Below are positions 48,401 to 54,400 of a stretch of 64,000 bases of DNA, piece after piece; position 1 is the stretch's first letter, and each line of letters starts with the position of its first letter. Where the stretch lies: contig NC_083283.1 of assembly GCF_963506605.1 (NCBI RefSeq), positions 34,658,001-34,722,000 of the forward strand, written 5' to 3'. Made by a program: the position numbers. Source of the DNA: Zootoca vivipara. Lineage: Eukaryota.

Positions 48401-51400
48401 ACAGTGGCCCAAAATGGTTTCAGAACCACTGAATTTGCTCTTATTTCCCTTCCAGGCGCTACAATCCTGATTGAAATCTCCTGCTCTCAGCTGTTCTTTG
48501 TTTAGAACAGGCACCCCCAAACTTGACCCTCTAGCTGTTTTGGGACTACAATTCCCATCATCCCTGGCCACTGGTCCTGTTGGCTAGGGATGATGGGTGT
48601 TGTAGTCCCAAAACAGCTGGAGGGCCAAGGGCCACAATTTTTAAGCAGTTTGCCTTGGTGGTTTCCCAATTCCCCTCTACGGATCATTCTCACCACAGCA
48701 AATGAATGAGATCAGTTGTGGTGCATGTGGTGTGGTGAAACCACAGAGCCACTCTTCCCACAAAGATGCAGCTGGTGCCAGGTGGCAGTGGGGTTGGGAT
48801 TGTATGGGTGCACAAGTGAGACCAACCCAACACTCTCCGGTACACCCACATTGTCCTGGCTTTGATGCCTTCCAGTCCTAGCACTGGAATCAGCAGCCAT
48901 GCAGGGGTCAGGAGGGCAACTCTGTGGTTCTGCCCCACCACTTGTGCTGTTGCTGGAGGAAAGATGGAAAAGCAATTAATCCCCTAAAATGGCATTCTAA
49001 AGGAAACCTCTAGTGCATCTCTCATTATTATTTTTTAATAATAAAAAAACCTTGATCCCATGACTGTTTGCAGTTAAAGTGATCTATTCCTACCTTTTAG
49101 AGCGGTCTTGTATCATGGCACCAGAAAGTGGGCAAGTGCCCATATGTTGTCTAGACAACTCATGATGCTGTCACCAGAAGATAGTGAGATTCCCTAGGCC
49201 AGGCATCCCTAGGCCAGGATTCCCTAGGCCAGGCATCCCCAAACTGCGGCCCTCCAGATGTTTTGGCCTACAACTCCCATGATCCCTAGCTAACAGGACC
49301 AGTGGTCAAGGATGATGGGAATTGTAGTCCAAAACATCTGGAGGGCCGAAGTTTGGGGGTGCCTGCCCTAGGCCATGGGTGAGCTTCTGGTTGATCTCTA
49401 AGTGATGTGAAGCACATCAAGAAGGCTTTCTGACTCCCAATTGTTTAGCAGTGGCAAAAACAACATGCCCTCAAAAATTAAACTGCTGAAATGAAGAAGG
49501 ATGGGGGAGGAGGAAGGCCAGTTCTCATACTTGGAACAAATTAGTTCAGTTACTCAAAAGCAAGTTGCATGTCGAGGTCACCGGATTCCCCCCAATAAAT
49601 CCACACACACACACGTTAATTAAGTTTAAGGTTTGGGGCATTATTTTGGCCACAACTTTATTAAAATACAATCAAATGTGAGTGGTTGCTTAGGCATTGG
49701 TTAACCCATCTGTCCCCTGCCCTGAGACAGATTCTGCACTGACTTCCTCTAGGCATTTTGTGGAAGTCAGTAGGTAAACATTATCTGAGGGAGGACAGAG
49801 CCAGATACCAGGCCCTTTTGTCCTCCCTCGAATGTTTCCCGAGGCTCAATTTGCTCTGTGTTAGGCCCAATCCCCTAATGGGGTACTGACGAGAGCCTTT
49901 TAAGCCCCAGGATTCCTTTAACAGAATCTATATATATAAAGTCCAAGTTGTCCCTGCGTCCAAGCTGTCCCGTGTGTCCCTGGGGTACTGCGCATGTGCG
50001 CCAGGGACACAGGGATTGGAAGGAGAGACAACCAGGGACACAGGGAGCAGCCAACCGCCGCTCCGCCAACCGCCGCTCCGAAGCCCAGTCTCATGCTGGA
50101 GGTGCGCGGTGAGGCGGCGGGGGAGAGAAGCGCTCCCCCCCGGCAGCCTTGCCGCACACCGCCGGCATGGGACGGCACTTCCTCGGGGAACCCGAGGAAG
50201 CCGAAGCGGAAGCGGGCGCCGAGGGAAGCCGGCTTTGGCTTGGCAGCGGCGGGAAAAAGGGGAGGAATTCCTCCCCTTTTTCCCGCCGCCGCCAAGCCAG
50301 TCCCCGAGTCGAAGTGCGGCGCGGCGGGTGCTTTTCGCCGTTTGCCTCCCCCTGGGGGGAAGGCAAACGGCGAAAAGCCTCCGCTGCGGACTGGCTTGGC
50401 GGTGGCGGGAAGACCCGCCACCGCCAAGCCAGTCCCGGAGCCGAATTGCGGCGCGGCAGGGTTTTTCGCCGTTTGCCTCCCCCTGGGGGGAAGGCAAACG
50501 GCAAAAAGCCTCCGCTGCGGACTGGCTTGGCGGTGGCGGGTCTTCCCGCCACCGCCAAGCCAGTCCCGGAGCCGAGGTTCCGGTTTCCGCCTGCAGGAAT
50601 GGCGGACCTGTTTTCCATCTCTCTGACCTTCGTAAGGAATTTGGCGGTTGCTAGGGGAGTAAATGGCAACCCCCTACCCTCTCCGGGGGTTACGGAGAGG
50701 GGCCGCTGGCCCGCGATGCCCCCAGACCCACTCCGACTGTTTTTGGAGTGGGGGGAGCTAGGGCTGAGCACTTACGAGGGTCAGGACTCCCGGACGCTAA
50801 TCTGCATGGCGGGGATTTCCATGGTTAAAGAAGATAATTAGGCTTAAATCTATGGACATACTTCAGAAGGAGGGGAGGAAGCGCTGTTTACTGCTGAGAA
50901 ATTTATGCTGCTGAGGGAGAGGAGTCAAAGATTATACTGCATCTGGAAGAAGGATTGATGGGGGACGGAGCGATAAGGGAAGTGAGTTTTTATTTTTTTT
51001 TCTTCATATTGTTGCCTCGTACCTTCCCGGACGCGATGTCCTGGCTTGTTTGGAGTGAAAGAGAAGCAAAAGACTGTGTGAGTTGAACTTTATAACTGTT
51101 GTTACTGAGCATATTTTTTAAAGATGTGGAGTTGCCGATGAGAAAAGCCCCCCCCCCTAGTCGGACGGAAGGAGTTCTGGACGCGTTCGGAGGATTTATG
51201 AGCTGTGACGCACTTTAAATTGGAGCAGCGACCTGAAGCTAAGTTCAGCTATAGGGCAAGGAGATCCATTAATTTACCAAGAGTTTATGGTTTGATGTTT
51301 GGGTCTCCTGCCTGGAAAAGCTGTAAATTCTATAATGATCGTAAATCTTCATGGCTATGAGAGAAAACGAAAGTGATTTGAGCTTTTTAAGATGGCGCTG

Positions 51401-54400
51401 CTTCGGGCTGCTTCGACGCAACAGGGAGCTCCATTAAGAAGATTTATGGGGAGGCTGGACTGATTAACTCACACAGGAGAAAGAACATCTGTGAAACTTT
51501 GTTTGATATTTATCTCAGCAGCTGGGAAACAATCGGATGAAAGTGGAAAACATCTATGTGACTGTAAGGGGAAGATCTGGATTATTATGAACTTGGAGGA
51601 CGATTTGAACTTTAGAAAAAAGACGGCAGTGGACAGTTGCGAGGAATTCCCAATTTCTTGAAGCATGGGAACCTGCTTCCCCGAGCCGTAGCGCATCGGG
51701 GGACAGAGCCGAAGATCGGCAGGCACTGTTTGCCGGGGTTGACAAGCTTCGTGTGACAGGCGGTGGGGAATGCAGGCAGGCAAGAGAGCAAGCGCCTGCC
51801 TGCCTGCCTGCCTGCCTTCCCCGCCACCAGTCCCCCGATGCTTCGTGCAGCGCTGCTGGGTGCCGACCCGGCAGGCCGCTTCCTCTAGCGCCCATTTTTA
51901 AACGGGCTGAAATCCACTAGTATATCTATAAAGGGACCCCTGACCATTAGGTCCAGTCGTGACTGACTCTGGGGTTGCACGCTCATCTCGCATTATTGGC
52001 CGAGGGAGCCGGCGTATAGCTTCCAGGTCATGTGGCCAGCATGACAAAGCCGCTTCTGGCAAACCAGAGCAGCACATGGAAACGCCGTTTACCTTCCCGC
52101 TGTAGCGGTTCCTATTTATCTACTTGCATTTTGACGTGCTTTCGAACTGCTAGGTTGGCAGAAGCTGGGACCAAGCAACGGGAGCTCACCCCGTCACAGG
52201 GATTCGAACCGCCGACCTTCTGATCAGCAAGCCCTAGGCCCAGCCTTTCCATACTCCTCTTTCCAGCCAATCTCTTACCAGCCAATTTTAACCAATGCCT
52301 AACCGCCAACCTTACAAGTTGTGACGATTTGCTATGCCCCACCCCCACCCTAAGTGTCCCGATTTTCCAGGGACAGTCCCAGACTTACAGAAGCCGTTCC
52401 AGTTTCTAATTTGATCCTGTAGAGTCCTGCTTTCCCATTGGATGTTACTCTTTTCATTGGAGAAATGTTGGAAGGGATGGAATGAGGTGTCTCTATTTTT
52501 ATCTGAGAAATGTTGGAGGAGATGAAAACAGTGAACAACAAGCCAATGTCCCCACAATGCCCTTTTTGTTGTATATAATAGTTGATCTTCCCATGAGGAA
52601 AAACAGGATGAAGAGTATCTCTATGAAATCTGTTTATCTGTATTAGGCATCCCCAAACTGCGGCCCTCCAGATGTTTTGGCCTACAACTCCCATGATCCC
52701 TAGCTAACAGGACCAGTGGTCGGGGAAGATGGGAATTGTAGTCCAAAACATCTGGAGGGCCGAAGTTTGGGGATGCCTGATCTATATGAACCAGTTGGTT
52801 CAACATCATTTTTAAGAGCATTGGAGTTTTCATCCTTAAAGTTTAATTTTAACCTGAAAAATGGAATGTGTGGCTTTCCCTCCCTTTCTCTGTACCTTTA
52901 TTTTCTTTAGAAGCATAGTGTTGTATGTCTTAAAAAGAGATGTTCGTGTCAAAAAGATGACCCGCTGTTTGGGGAGGGAGGAGAGAAGAAATCATTAAAA
53001 GAGATTTCTCAATAATCAAGGACATCTGTGATCCTGTACTGCTTGCAAAAGCACAAAGGGCCTACTGCTCCCCTGCCAAAGTACAATGTCTGTGATCCCT
53101 CACCCCAAAGGGAAAATAAGGAGAGAAGGAGAAAATTATGTGACAGGAGATCAGCTGCTCTCTGCTTCTTTTTTTAAAAGCCCAGGTTGTTGCTATTTAA
53201 CATATAACCCTCTGACCTTACTGCTGTGGCTGCTTTGAAACACCAAGCTATTTAATTATGCAAATTACAAACAGAGAAAAACATCAGAAGAATCTGCCTA
53301 GAAATTACCTCGTTTGACTGGAAATTAGTTGGCTTATTTGAACTTACAGGACGTTGCTTTTCAGTGTTGAATTCTGGCTTGGTGCATTGGTCTATTTGCA
53401 TTATCTTACATCTCTGTGGGACGCTGGAAAGTGTTAAGAATTAATGGCTGAAGTAATATCTCATCTATTATCCTTACACCTAATTATTTTTAAAGATGTG
53501 TCCTGTAGTGGGCACTAATGAATGGAATTCTCCTCGAATCCTGGTGCACACAGAGCAAACAAACAATGCATATCCATTTCACTTGTCGGTGAAGGCAGCA
53601 GTGCTATTAAACCAATGTAGCTGTCAGCAATCTCAGGAGCTTGCCATTCAGAAATTCTGTCTCCAAATAAGCTAATTCTTTTGAATCTGACCGAAGTGGA
53701 CCCGAGCTTCTGGAAGCCTTGTGCCACAGTGCATTTGGAAGCCTTTAAATCCTCCCTGTTGCTTTTGCTGGTCCTTTTGGTGGTTGGATGGTGGATCTGA
53801 TAAGATAATTGTGTGTATCTTTTGGACCCTGATGATGCCCTTCTATATTAAGGTATACAAAGGTATACGCACCCGTACTACTAAAGAGGAAACAATCTCT
53901 TTCCTTACTTCATTCTCTAGGAAGGCCACGGCACACACGGAATCTCTTAAGAACATGAGAAGGGCCTGCTGGATCAGGCCAGTGGCCAATCTAATCCAGC
54001 CTTCTGTTCTCATAGTGACCTGCAAGTTAGCCATGAGCGCAACAGCACACTGACTACCTGTGATTCCCAGCAACTGGTCTTCAGAGGCATAATGCCTCTG
54101 GCCATGGTAGGAGAACATAGCCATTGTGACTAGTAGCCATTGTCAAAGTGTCCTCTTTGTGCAAAGAAATTTGAGCTTTGCCTTTCAAGTGCGTATGACC
54201 TGATGAAAAATGTTGCATCTTAAATTGCACGGAAAGCTGGTAGTTTGCAGAGCTTACTCCCACTCCACATCCTCGGGGACTGTTTGAGCGGGTCTGCAAA
54301 AGTGCTCTCTTCTAGAACCATCTTCTATAACTATCATGAGAGCTGCAACCAGCATCCCATGTGCTTTCCTTGTGTCCTGTCCTTGAGAATGCCCAGTGGA

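What the first reader, a model, noticed from the sequence alone, without database searches (positions are those of the whole stretch)
49927..51920. Structurally complete, CpG-rich non-autonomous Helitron with cargo
Seen: TC start, subterminal hairpin, CTAG end, A|T insertion without TSD, and abundant intact CpGs against a CpG-poor background, which implies youth or protection from methylation. Established: Helitrons move by rolling-circle transposition and capture host fragments; in amniotes they are patchy, best known in bats and some lizards. Inference: a recently active family that acts as a mobile CpG island with promoter-like cargo. This is the most distinctive structure in the window.
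Basis: partly seen in the sequence, partly recalled or inferred. Interest (0 to 1): 0.75.

Follow-up and report, generated by a model that had tools for sequence, protein, structure and literature searches.

The report
Ordinary non-coding Helitron copy in lizard DNA
This 2-kb stretch is most likely one copy of a non-coding rolling-circle transposon (Helitron) of a kind already catalogued in lizard genomes, and its many CpGs point to a recent insertion rather than a special function.

Summary
The described features are all at the stated coordinates. The element spans 49927-51920 (1,994 bp). It starts A|TC and ends CTAG|T. An 18-nt palindrome ends 13 nt before the 3' end. There is no TIR and no TSD at the exact junctions. 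CpG o/e is 0.81 against 0.28 in the rest of the window.

The termini alone are weak evidence: 7 of 82 CTAGT sites in the window carry a comparable palindrome. Support comes from the sharp CpG step at 49927. It also comes from terminal words printed for a vertebrate Helitron family, Heli1Xen1 (5' TATATAAA; 3' hairpin arm AACGGG). The length matches the published 1,930-2,000-bp non-autonomous Helitron families of Anolis.

Nothing in the element codes for a protein, and no host "cargo" could be identified. The CpG richness matches other young repeats in the window. Four palindrome mismatches look like CpG decay. This favours youth and gives no sign of protection from methylation.

One caveat remains. 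A 12/13 direct repeat lies 2 nt inside the 5' end and immediately after the 3' end.

Copy number, empty sites and an autonomous partner could not be tested, because no eukaryotic genome or repeat library was available. Verdict: a probable, ordinary, already-known kind of element.

The parts
49926..49941 (+). Target A (49926) and the left terminus: TC followed by a TA-rich word that contains TATATAAA.
   Evidence: The LTS word TATATAAA is printed for Heli1Xen1 (PMC12001565, section 22). A|TC within 8 nt of TATATAAA occurs at 2 sites in the window: here and an AT-rich noise site at 30077.
49964..50051 (+). 5' subterminal nested palindromes around GCGCATGTGCGC.
   Evidence: I14, I15; fold.
50027..50826 (+). 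GC-rich segment that passes CpG-island criteria. GC is 0.59-0.74 and o/e 0.60-1.04 per 100 nt.
   Evidence: One search merges 49881-50890 (GC 0.63, 82 CpG, o/e 0.82).
50178..50200 (+). 10-bp perfect hairpin CTTCCTCGGG / CCCGAGGAAG.
   Evidence: sequence; fold.
50236..50299 (+). 64-nt palindrome. Arms are 32 nt with 1 mismatch, and that mismatch is of CpG-decay type.
   Evidence: I4.
50282..50575 (+). 131-bp unit x 2.2, made of nested palindromes. 50388-50435 and 50519-50566 are exact reverse complements, with loop AAGA against TCTT.
   Evidence: TRF, 92% matches; I2, 48 of 48 complementary.
50599..50838 (+). ATG-initiated 80-codon ORF with no relatives. A GTAAGG donor-like site lies at 50632-50637. 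Probably non-coding.
   Evidence: 0 hits for the 242-aa frame that contains it; no Pfam match.
50821..51660 (+). AT-richer interior (GC 0.43) that still has CpG o/e 0.71. No protein family matches.
   Evidence: 25 CpG against 9.7 expected, P = 3e-5.
51742..51846 (+). Long imperfect palindrome containing (GCCT)6 at 51794-51817.
   Evidence: (I3).
51849..51880 (+). GC-rich hairpin with a 9+4-bp stem.
51890..51907 (+). Right-end palindrome GCCCATTT/AAACGGGC. The mismatch A51894/C51903 reads as CCCG to CCCA.
   Evidence: Compare the hairpin CCCGTTA...TAACGGG of Heli1Xen1 (PMC12001565, section 22).
51917..51921 (+). CTAG terminus and target T.
   Evidence: AACGGG, then 5-20 nt, then CTAG occurs once in the window, here.
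51921..51933 (+). 3' flank word TATATCTATAAAG, 12 of 13 identical to 49929-49941. Its last 5 nt belong to the neighbouring SINE.
51929..52239 (-). Neighbouring SINE copy. It is not part of the element and fixes the right boundary to within 8 nt.
   Evidence: 91.7% identity over 312 nt to 33049-33360..

Best explanation
49927-51920 is one copy of a non-autonomous canonical Helitron in a squamate (lizard) genome.

Inferred mechanism, taken from the Helraiser work. A RepHel transposase supplied in trans nicks the plus strand at A|TC. It peels the strand off 5' to 3', stops at the hairpin plus CTAG, and circularises it. The circle is then pasted between an A and a T of an AT-rich target without duplicating it.

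Shown here: the end structure, the lack of coding capacity, and the compositional step.

Inferred: mobility, the trans-acting partner, and the family.

The GC-rich palindromic 5' third is most simply the element's own promoter or 5' UTR remnant, not captured host DNA. The high CpG content reflects a recent insertion. The AT-rich, left-end-like word just after the 3' end reflects target choice, not a duplication.
For: - All single-copy Helitron rules are met: A|TC, CTAG|T, an 18-nt palindrome 13 nt from the end, no TIR, no TSD at the junctions. Helraiser has a 19-bp palindrome 11 nt from the end (PMC4778049, passages).
- Terminal words printed independently for Heli1Xen1 are present: TATATAAA inside the first 15 nt, and the 3' hairpin arm AACGGG (PMC12001565, section 22).
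- In the window, A|TC..TATATAAA occurs at 2 sites and AACGGG..CTAG|T at 1 site. They form one correctly ordered pair. In 60 Markov simulations the means were 0.52 and 0.17, with 1 ordered pair in total.
- The hairpin's single mismatch is a CpG-to-CpA change. Reversing it would give a perfect CCCGTTT/AAACGGG.
- CpG o/e steps from 0.22 in the left flank to 0.64-0.93 at 49927. The right end abuts a SINE within 8 nt.
- No coding capacity. 0 of 42 ORFs of at least 25 aa reach a Pfam cut-off. There were 0 hits in two protein searches.
- Length 1,994 bp, against Helitron-2N2/2N3/2N5_AC at 1,930/2,000/2,000 bp with 608 to more than 1,000 copies and about 2% divergence (PMC3014272, Table 2 passage).
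- The window carries a hAT with the exact published Anolis hAT-HT2 TIR.
- Helraiser prefers AT-rich targets, most strongly on the transposon's 3' flank, and its left end is AT-rich near the cleavage site (PMC4778049, passages).
Against: - Only one copy is in the window, so co-occurrence of the two ends elsewhere, empty sites and a RepHel partner are all untested.
- The 3' signature alone occurs at 7 of 82 CTAGT sites, and the terminal hairpin is weak (z -0.75).
- The Heli1Xen1 motifs were taken from the paper after the sequence had been seen. The 5' hairpin arm differs (CCCATTT against CCCGTTA).
- A 12/13 direct repeat brackets 49942-51920, and such a word is rare in the window. A 13-bp TSD reading cannot be excluded.
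- Host identity (Anolis or another lizard) is not established. 0 of 4 Anolis Tc1 TIRs and 0 hAT-N6-8 TIRs were found.
Confidence: 0.8

Rival explanations
1. A 1,979-bp segment (49942-51920) was inserted with a 13-bp target-site duplication (TATATATATAAAG / TATATCTATAAAG). The mechanism would be LINE-mediated retroposition or repair-mediated insertion. The A|TC start would then be a coincidence in the flank.
For: The 12/13 direct repeat sits exactly at inner-left and outer-right. Words within 1 mismatch occur at only 3 loci in 64 kb. The right copy's last 5 nt belong to the SINE, as a duplication of target would predict. The other SINE copy in the window has a 13-bp TSD, so 13-bp duplications are made in this genome.
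Against: There is no poly(A) or SINE/LINE-type tail on either strand. The minus-strand 3' end shares nothing with the SINE tail beyond the 13-mer: score 21, against shuffle mean 14.6 and maximum 23. This reading needs A|TC, TATATAAA, a hairpin and CTAG|T all to arise by chance. TATATAAA is a printed feature of a Helitron left end (PMC12001565). An AT-rich 3' flank is the known Helraiser target preference (PMC4778049).
Confidence: 0.08
2. A resident host CpG-island promoter with a first exon (ATG at 50599, donor-like GTAAGG at 50632). The Helitron-like ends would be chance.
For: The segment passes CpG-island criteria: 49881-50890, GC 0.63, o/e 0.82. There is an ATG in a good context followed by GT donors.
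Against: High CpG o/e continues through 840 nt of GC 0.43 sequence (P = 3e-5), which is unlike island shores. The 5' 674 nt is a chain of near-perfect long palindromes: -290 kcal/mol, z -25. There were 0 protein relatives. Four of the five other CpG-island-like segments in the window show TE features or lie in a TE: a MITE at 13.1 kb, a hAT at 18.4 kb, a SINE at 33.0 kb and the LINE region at 34.3 kb; 8511-8720 is unclassified but resembles the 34.3-kb segment. Both terminal motifs sit exactly at the compositional edges.
Confidence: 0.04
3. A Helitron that did capture a host promoter plus a short first exon and splice donor, like HelibatN3 with NUBPL. It would act as a mobile promoter or exon trap.
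For: The architecture resembles HelibatN3: promoter, a few codons, then a splice donor (PMC4778049, passages). Here a CpG-island-like segment is followed by an ATG, 11 codons and GTAAGG.
Against: No parental gene was found, and an 11-codon exon is too short to search. GT donor-like words are expected by chance in 2 kb. Novick et al. report only one composite Helitron family in Anolis (PMC3014272, passage).
Confidence: 0.08

Closest known systems
Helitron-2N2_AC / 2N3_AC / 2N5_AC, non-autonomous Helitrons of Anolis carolinensis (Novick et al., PMC3014272; passages and Table 2 seen)
   Same: Non-coding, inserted at A|T, no TIR. Lengths are 1,930-2,000 bp against 1,994 bp here. The published families are young (about 2% divergence). 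The window also holds a hAT with the published Anolis hAT-HT2 TIR.
   Different: 2N3_AC is said to contain SINE and Poseidon pieces, and no SINE piece lies inside this element. The host species is not proven.
Heli1Xen1, a horizontally transferred vertebrate Helitron family found in Xenopus, Lacertidae, Cordylidae and others (PMC12001565; abstract and sections 20 and 22 read)
   Same: TC/CTAG ends. The TA-rich left-end word TATATAAA is present exactly. The right-end hairpin has the same style: AACGGG is shared, and CCCATT against CCCGTT differs by one CpG-type change.
   Different: The hairpin is not identical (TTT..AAA against TTA..TAA). The commonest non-autonomous sizes reported are 152-1,747 bp. 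RepHel and internal similarity are untestable here. The paper's terminal alignments are in a supplement that is closed.
Helibat1 / Helraiser and HelibatN3 of Myotis (PMC4778049, PMC5876387; passages seen)
   Same: 5'-TC/CTAG-3' ends, a palindrome of about 19 bp 11 nt before the end, an AT-rich left-end start, and an AT-rich target that is strongest on the 3' flank. HelibatN3 carries a promoter, a few codons and a splice donor.
   Different: The host is different, and no sequence comparison was possible. No captured gene was identified here.
Helentron / Helitron2-type elements (recalled, not from a call)
   Same: Rolling-circle transposons with terminal hairpins.
   Different: As recalled, they have short terminal inverted repeats and insert between T and T. 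Here there is no TIR and the target is A|T.

Membership tests
Canonical Helitron | 5' terminus TC | tested here: met
   T49927 C49928.
Canonical Helitron | 3' terminus CTRR (CTAG in vertebrate families) | tested here: met
   CTAG at 51917-51920.
Canonical Helitron | Short palindrome about 10-15 nt upstream of the 3' end | tested here: met
   The palindrome at 51890-51907 is 18 nt, arms match 7 of 8, and it ends 13 nt before the terminus. It is weak: z -0.75, and 7 of 82 CTAGT sites show a comparable one.
Canonical Helitron | Insertion between host A and T | tested here: met
   A49926 and T51921.
Canonical Helitron | No target-site duplication | tested here: inconclusive
   No repeat of 2-20 nt at the exact junctions. 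However, a 12/13 direct repeat is offset by 2 nt at the 5' side.
Canonical Helitron | No terminal inverted repeats | tested here: met
   Score 10; 279 of 300 shuffles score as high.
Canonical Helitron | Both termini co-occur at many loci with unrelated flanks, and empty sites exist | not testable with these tools
   There are 0 other copies in the 64-kb window. No eukaryotic genome or repeat library was on hand.
Canonical Helitron | An autonomous RepHel partner with the same ends | not testable with these tools
   No Rep or helicase domain in 135 window ORFs of at least 80 aa.
Heli1Xen1-type termini | Left-end TA-rich word TATATAAA | tested here: met
   The word is contained in 49929-49941.
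Heli1Xen1-type termini | Right-end hairpin CCCGTTA...TAACGGG | tested here: inconclusive
   The sequence here is GCCCATTT..AAACGGGC. The core AACGGG is present once in the window before a CTAG. The 5' arm differs by a CpG-type change and by T/A.
Anolis Helitron-2N2/2N3/2N5_AC | Length 1,930-2,000 bp | tested here: met
   1,994 bp, against PMC3014272 Table 2.
Anolis Helitron-2N2/2N3/2N5_AC | Sequence identity to the family consensus | not testable with these tools
   No Repbase or Dfam library was available, and the papers print no sequence. String searches returned 0 papers.
Anolis Helitron-2N2/2N3/2N5_AC | Host is Anolis carolinensis | tested here: inconclusive
   The exact hAT-HT2 TIR is present at 18433-18448. 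However, 0 of 4 Tc1 TIRs and 0 hAT-N6-8 TIRs were found. The mir-5408 hits are below threshold: 51.5 bits against 90.
Promoter-capturing Helitron (HelibatN3-like) | An internal segment traceable to a host gene promoter or first exon | tested here: not met
   0 protein relatives and no Pfam match. DNA-level parentage is not testable.
Helentron / Helitron2 | Terminal inverted repeats and a T|T target (recalled definition) | tested here: not met
   No TIR, and the target is A|T.

The most novel reading that the evidence does not exclude
The integration site was chosen because it mimics the element's own left end. The first 13 flank bases after CTAG are 12/13 identical to the bases after TC. This suggests the Rep nuclease reads the same TA-rich word at donor and target. 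In addition, the 5' third is a flip/flop array of near-perfect GC palindromes with an ATG and splice donor, which could serve as a mobile cruciform promoter or exon trap. If either feature held across the family, it would add a mechanistic detail to Helitron targeting or to promoter spreading in squamates.
Probability: 0.12. Interest if true: 0.45.

Novelty: already known. Interest (0 to 1): 0.15.

Why it matters
It matters little beyond annotation. Non-autonomous Helitrons of about 2 kb, young and polymorphic, are already described in lizards (PMC3014272, PMC7561263, PMC12001565).

The useful outcomes are these:
- A CpG-rich block in this CpG-poor genome is a marker of a recent repeat insertion, not of a host promoter.
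- The apparent "cargo" needs no capture event.
- Two small leads could be checked cheaply across all copies of the family: a target word that mimics the left end, and flip/flop palindromes.

Tried and rejected
- Protein searches. The frame across the left junction (49890-50651) found no protein at E <= 0.001 among 3,548 candidates. The 242-aa frame 50113-50838 scored against 1.84 billion representatives gave 0 hits. So other copies could not be traced through predicted proteins.
- Host identification through a LINE ORF (31676-32245) gave 1 weak hit of 29% identity. It was not used further.
- Pfam gave nothing in the element.
- Rfam at gathering threshold gave 0 matches in the window. At E <= 1 there were 52 sub-threshold hairpin matches in 49000-53000, all far below gathering scores. 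These were rejected as generic hairpin hits.
- ARAGORN found 0 tRNAs.
- Literature string searches for the 5' word and for SINE/MITE words returned 0 papers. A search for 'Helitron-2N' returned 5 papers with no sequence.
- A suspected 250-300-bp internal repeat in 50860-51665 was rejected: mean column identity 52%, and TRF found nothing there.
- Retroposon-tail similarity to the SINE was rejected.
- Anolis Tc1 and hAT-N6-8 TIR motifs were not found.
- The LTS-like site at 30077 was inspected and is AT-rich noise.
- Supplements are closed. These may bear on family assignment: Helraiser consensus (Supplementary Fig. 1 of PMC4778049), Heli1Xen1 terminal alignments (Fig. S5 of PMC12001565) and the Heligloria tables (PMC2997563).
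Only unspliced frames were searched.

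
Full report
**What is there**

A49926 precedes TC, and the sequence continues TATATATATAAAG. The 3' end reads GCCCATTTTTAAACGGGC-TGAAATCCACTAG, followed by T51921 (positions fixed).

The 18-nt palindrome at 51890-51907 has arms that match 7 of 8. It ends 13 nt before the terminus. Two stronger GC hairpins lie upstream, at 51849-51880 and 51742-51846. The last 221 nt fold with z -3.06. The last 60 nt alone do not fold notably (z -0.75).

The ends are not inverted repeats, and there is no duplication of 2-20 nt at the exact junctions.

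CpG: the element has 124 CpG, o/e 0.81 and GC 0.56. The rest of the window has o/e 0.28 and GC 0.40 (P = 2e-24).

**Is it more than chance?**

The terminal signature by itself is not. 7 of 82 CTAGT sites on the two strands have an equally good palindrome 6-20 nt upstream. An A|TC somewhere upstream is trivial to find.

Three further things raise it above chance.

- *The compositional step.* The 551 nt left of 49927 have o/e 0.22, and the element has 0.64-0.93 from its first segments. On the right, a SINE copy starts 8 nt after CTAG.
- *Independently printed terminal words.* Li and Pollet describe, for the vertebrate family Heli1Xen1, TC/CTAG ends, a TA-rich left-end word TATATAAA and a right-end hairpin CCCGTTA...TAACGGG (PMC12001565, section 22 read). 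TATATAAA lies within the first 15 nt here. The 3' arm AACGGG lies before the CTAG. In the window, A|TC within 8 nt of TATATAAA occurs at 2 sites: 49927 and an AT-rich noise site at 30077. AACGGG, then 5-20 nt, then CTAG|T occurs once, at 51920. Sixty first-order Markov simulations gave means of 0.52 and 0.17 and one ordered pair in all. I chose these motifs after seeing the sequence, so this is a semi-independent test.
- *The hairpin mismatch.* The single mismatch (A51894 opposite C51903) is a CpG-to-CpA change. Undoing it gives a perfect CCCGTTT/AAACGGG.

**Geometry compared with an experimentally active Helitron**

Helraiser has TC/CTAG ends and a 19-bp palindrome 11 nt before the end. It has an AT-rich stretch next to the left cleavage site. 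It inserts at AT dinucleotides in AT-rich DNA, and that preference is most pronounced on the 3' flank of the transposon (PMC4778049, passages). All of this matches the locus.

**Coding capacity and "cargo"**

- Of 135 stop-to-stop ORFs of at least 80 aa in the window, only one passes a Pfam cut-off. It is RVT_1 at 33306-33599, in a LINE.
- Of 42 ORFs of at least 25 aa overlapping 50580-51930, none does. The 5' 650 nt were covered only by the six long frames that run through them.
- The frame across the left junction had no relatives among 3,548 candidates.
- The 242-aa frame containing an ATG-initiated 80-codon ORF (50599-50838) had 0 hits in 1.84 billion representatives.

So the element is non-autonomous, and no host-derived piece is identifiable.

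An ATG, 11 codons and a GTAAGG (50632-50637) do recall HelibatN3, which carries the NUBPL promoter, six codons and a donor (PMC4778049, passages). However, such short signals are expected by chance. I built no spliced model and searched only unspliced frames. Novick et al. state that all Anolis non-autonomous Helitron families are internal deletions of autonomous ones, with only one composite family (PMC3014272, passages). The GC-rich 5' third is therefore more simply the element's own 5' region.

**The 5' third is unusual in structure**

49927-50600 folds as single-stranded DNA at -290 kcal/mol, against -157 +/- 5 for 20 shuffles (z -25). It is a chain of long palindromes:

- a 64-nt palindrome with one mismatch;
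- a 131-bp unit repeated 2.2 times;
- two 48-nt hairpins (50388-50435 and 50519-50566) that are exact reverse complements of each other, with loop AAGA against TCTT.

I have no test of what this does.

**CpG: youth, not protection**

The AT-richer interior (50821-51660, GC 0.43) keeps o/e 0.71. The two SINE copies have 0.75 each and the LINE at 31-35 kb has 0.63. Four of the five other CpG-island-like segments in the window show TE features or lie in a TE. These are a MITE at 13.1 kb, a hAT at 18.4 kb, a SINE at 33.0 kb and the LINE region at 34.3 kb. The fifth, 8511-8720, is unclassified but resembles the 34.3-kb segment.

Within six clean palindromes (298 nt) there are 9 arm mismatches. Four of them read as CpG-to-TpG/CpA against the partner arm, while 26 CpG remain, which is about 13% decay. 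Two more of this type lie in the long 3' palindrome. The lineage has therefore suffered methylation-type decay. Whether that happened in this copy or in its master cannot be told.

**The caveat**

TATATATATAAAG (49929-49941) and TATATCTATAAAG (51921-51933) match 12 of 13. Such words occur at only 3 loci in the window (5 matches, 0.15 expected).

- Read as a 13-bp duplication, the insert would be 49942-51920. The last 5 nt of the right copy belong to the SINE, as a duplicated target would predict.
- Against this reading: there is no poly(A) or LINE/SINE-type tail on either strand. TATATAAA is a published Helitron left-end feature. A|TC, the hairpin and CTAG|T would all have to be coincidences.
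- I read the similarity as target choice: an AT-rich, left-end-like word on the 3' flank. Only other copies can settle it.

**Host**

I do not take the window for human. It carries:

- a tRNA-related SINE in two copies, 91.7% alike, one with a 13-bp TSD. The name 'Sauria-type SINE' is recalled, not tested;
- a 360-bp hAT with the exact TIR CAGGGGTCCCCAAACT published for Anolis hAT-HT2 (PMC3014272 Table 1);
- four copies of a ~150-bp hAT MITE.

Four Anolis Tc1 TIRs and the hAT-N6-8 TIR were absent. The species stays open: an anole or another lizard.

**Known context**

Anolis has Helitron-2N2/2N3/2N5_AC at 1,930/2,000/2,000 bp, with 608 to more than 1,000 copies at about 2% divergence (PMC3014272, Table 2 passage). 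In populations, 19,266 polymorphic Helitron insertions are skewed to singletons, with very few fixed (PMC7561263, passages). Heli1Xen1 reached lacertid and cordylid lizards (PMC12001565, section 20). Heligloria elements are shared by bat, anole, lamprey and insects (PMC2997563, passages).

A young, 2-kb, non-coding Helitron in a lizard is thus an already known kind of element.

**What stayed unchecked**

- Copy number, co-occurrence of the ends, empty sites, the autonomous partner and identity to any consensus. No eukaryotic genome or repeat library was available.
- The closed collections and the closed supplements.
- The three N runs were left as they are.

Noticed in passing
window 18433-18792: A 360-bp non-autonomous hAT. 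Its TIR CAGGGGTCCCCAAACT has 0 and 1 mismatches to the published Anolis hAT-HT2 TIR. It has an 8-bp TSD TTTATATC and a CpG-rich palindromic interior (o/e 0.93).
   Followed up: partly
window 17043-17201, 48503-48626, 49224-49375, 52642-52792: Four copies of a ~150-bp palindromic hAT-type MITE, 81-97% alike. The TIR is CAGGCATCCCCAAACT, and the copy at 49.2 kb has the 8-bp TSD CCCTAGGC. Two copies bracket the Helitron/SINE region. They give sub-threshold Rfam hits to mir-5408 (51.5 bits against 90).
   Followed up: partly
window 33019-33369 (+) and 51929-52239 (-): Two copies of a tRNA-related SINE, 91.7% alike. The first is flanked by a 13-bp TSD (TTAATAATGATTA on the + strand) and sits inside a LINE. 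The second lacks the 5' head and shows no TSD.
   Followed up: partly
window ~31000-35000: An A-rich, CpG-retaining LINE fragment (o/e 0.63) with RVT_1 at 33306-33599. Tandem units of ~120 bp lie at 32342-32724.
   Followed up: no
window 13129-13437: A ~300-bp MITE with TIR AGCTGCCAAGTCTCCC. Its interior has palindromic CATGCGTAGAAGCGACTTCCGGTG modules, and it shares a 46-nt module (83%) with the hAT at 18.4 kb.
   Followed up: no
window 49988-50001, 18633-18644, ~8626-8636: The word CGCATGTGC(GC) recurs in three unrelated CpG-rich segments. GCGCATGTGC occurs 2 times exactly against 0.03 expected. It may be a shared promoter-like motif of young repeats.
   Followed up: partly
window 50388-50435 and 50519-50566: Two 48-nt hairpins inside the Helitron are exact reverse complements, differing only in loop orientation (flip/flop).
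   Followed up: partly
window 5727-5894, 44463-44694, 54815-54945: Three runs of N, left untouched.
   Followed up: no
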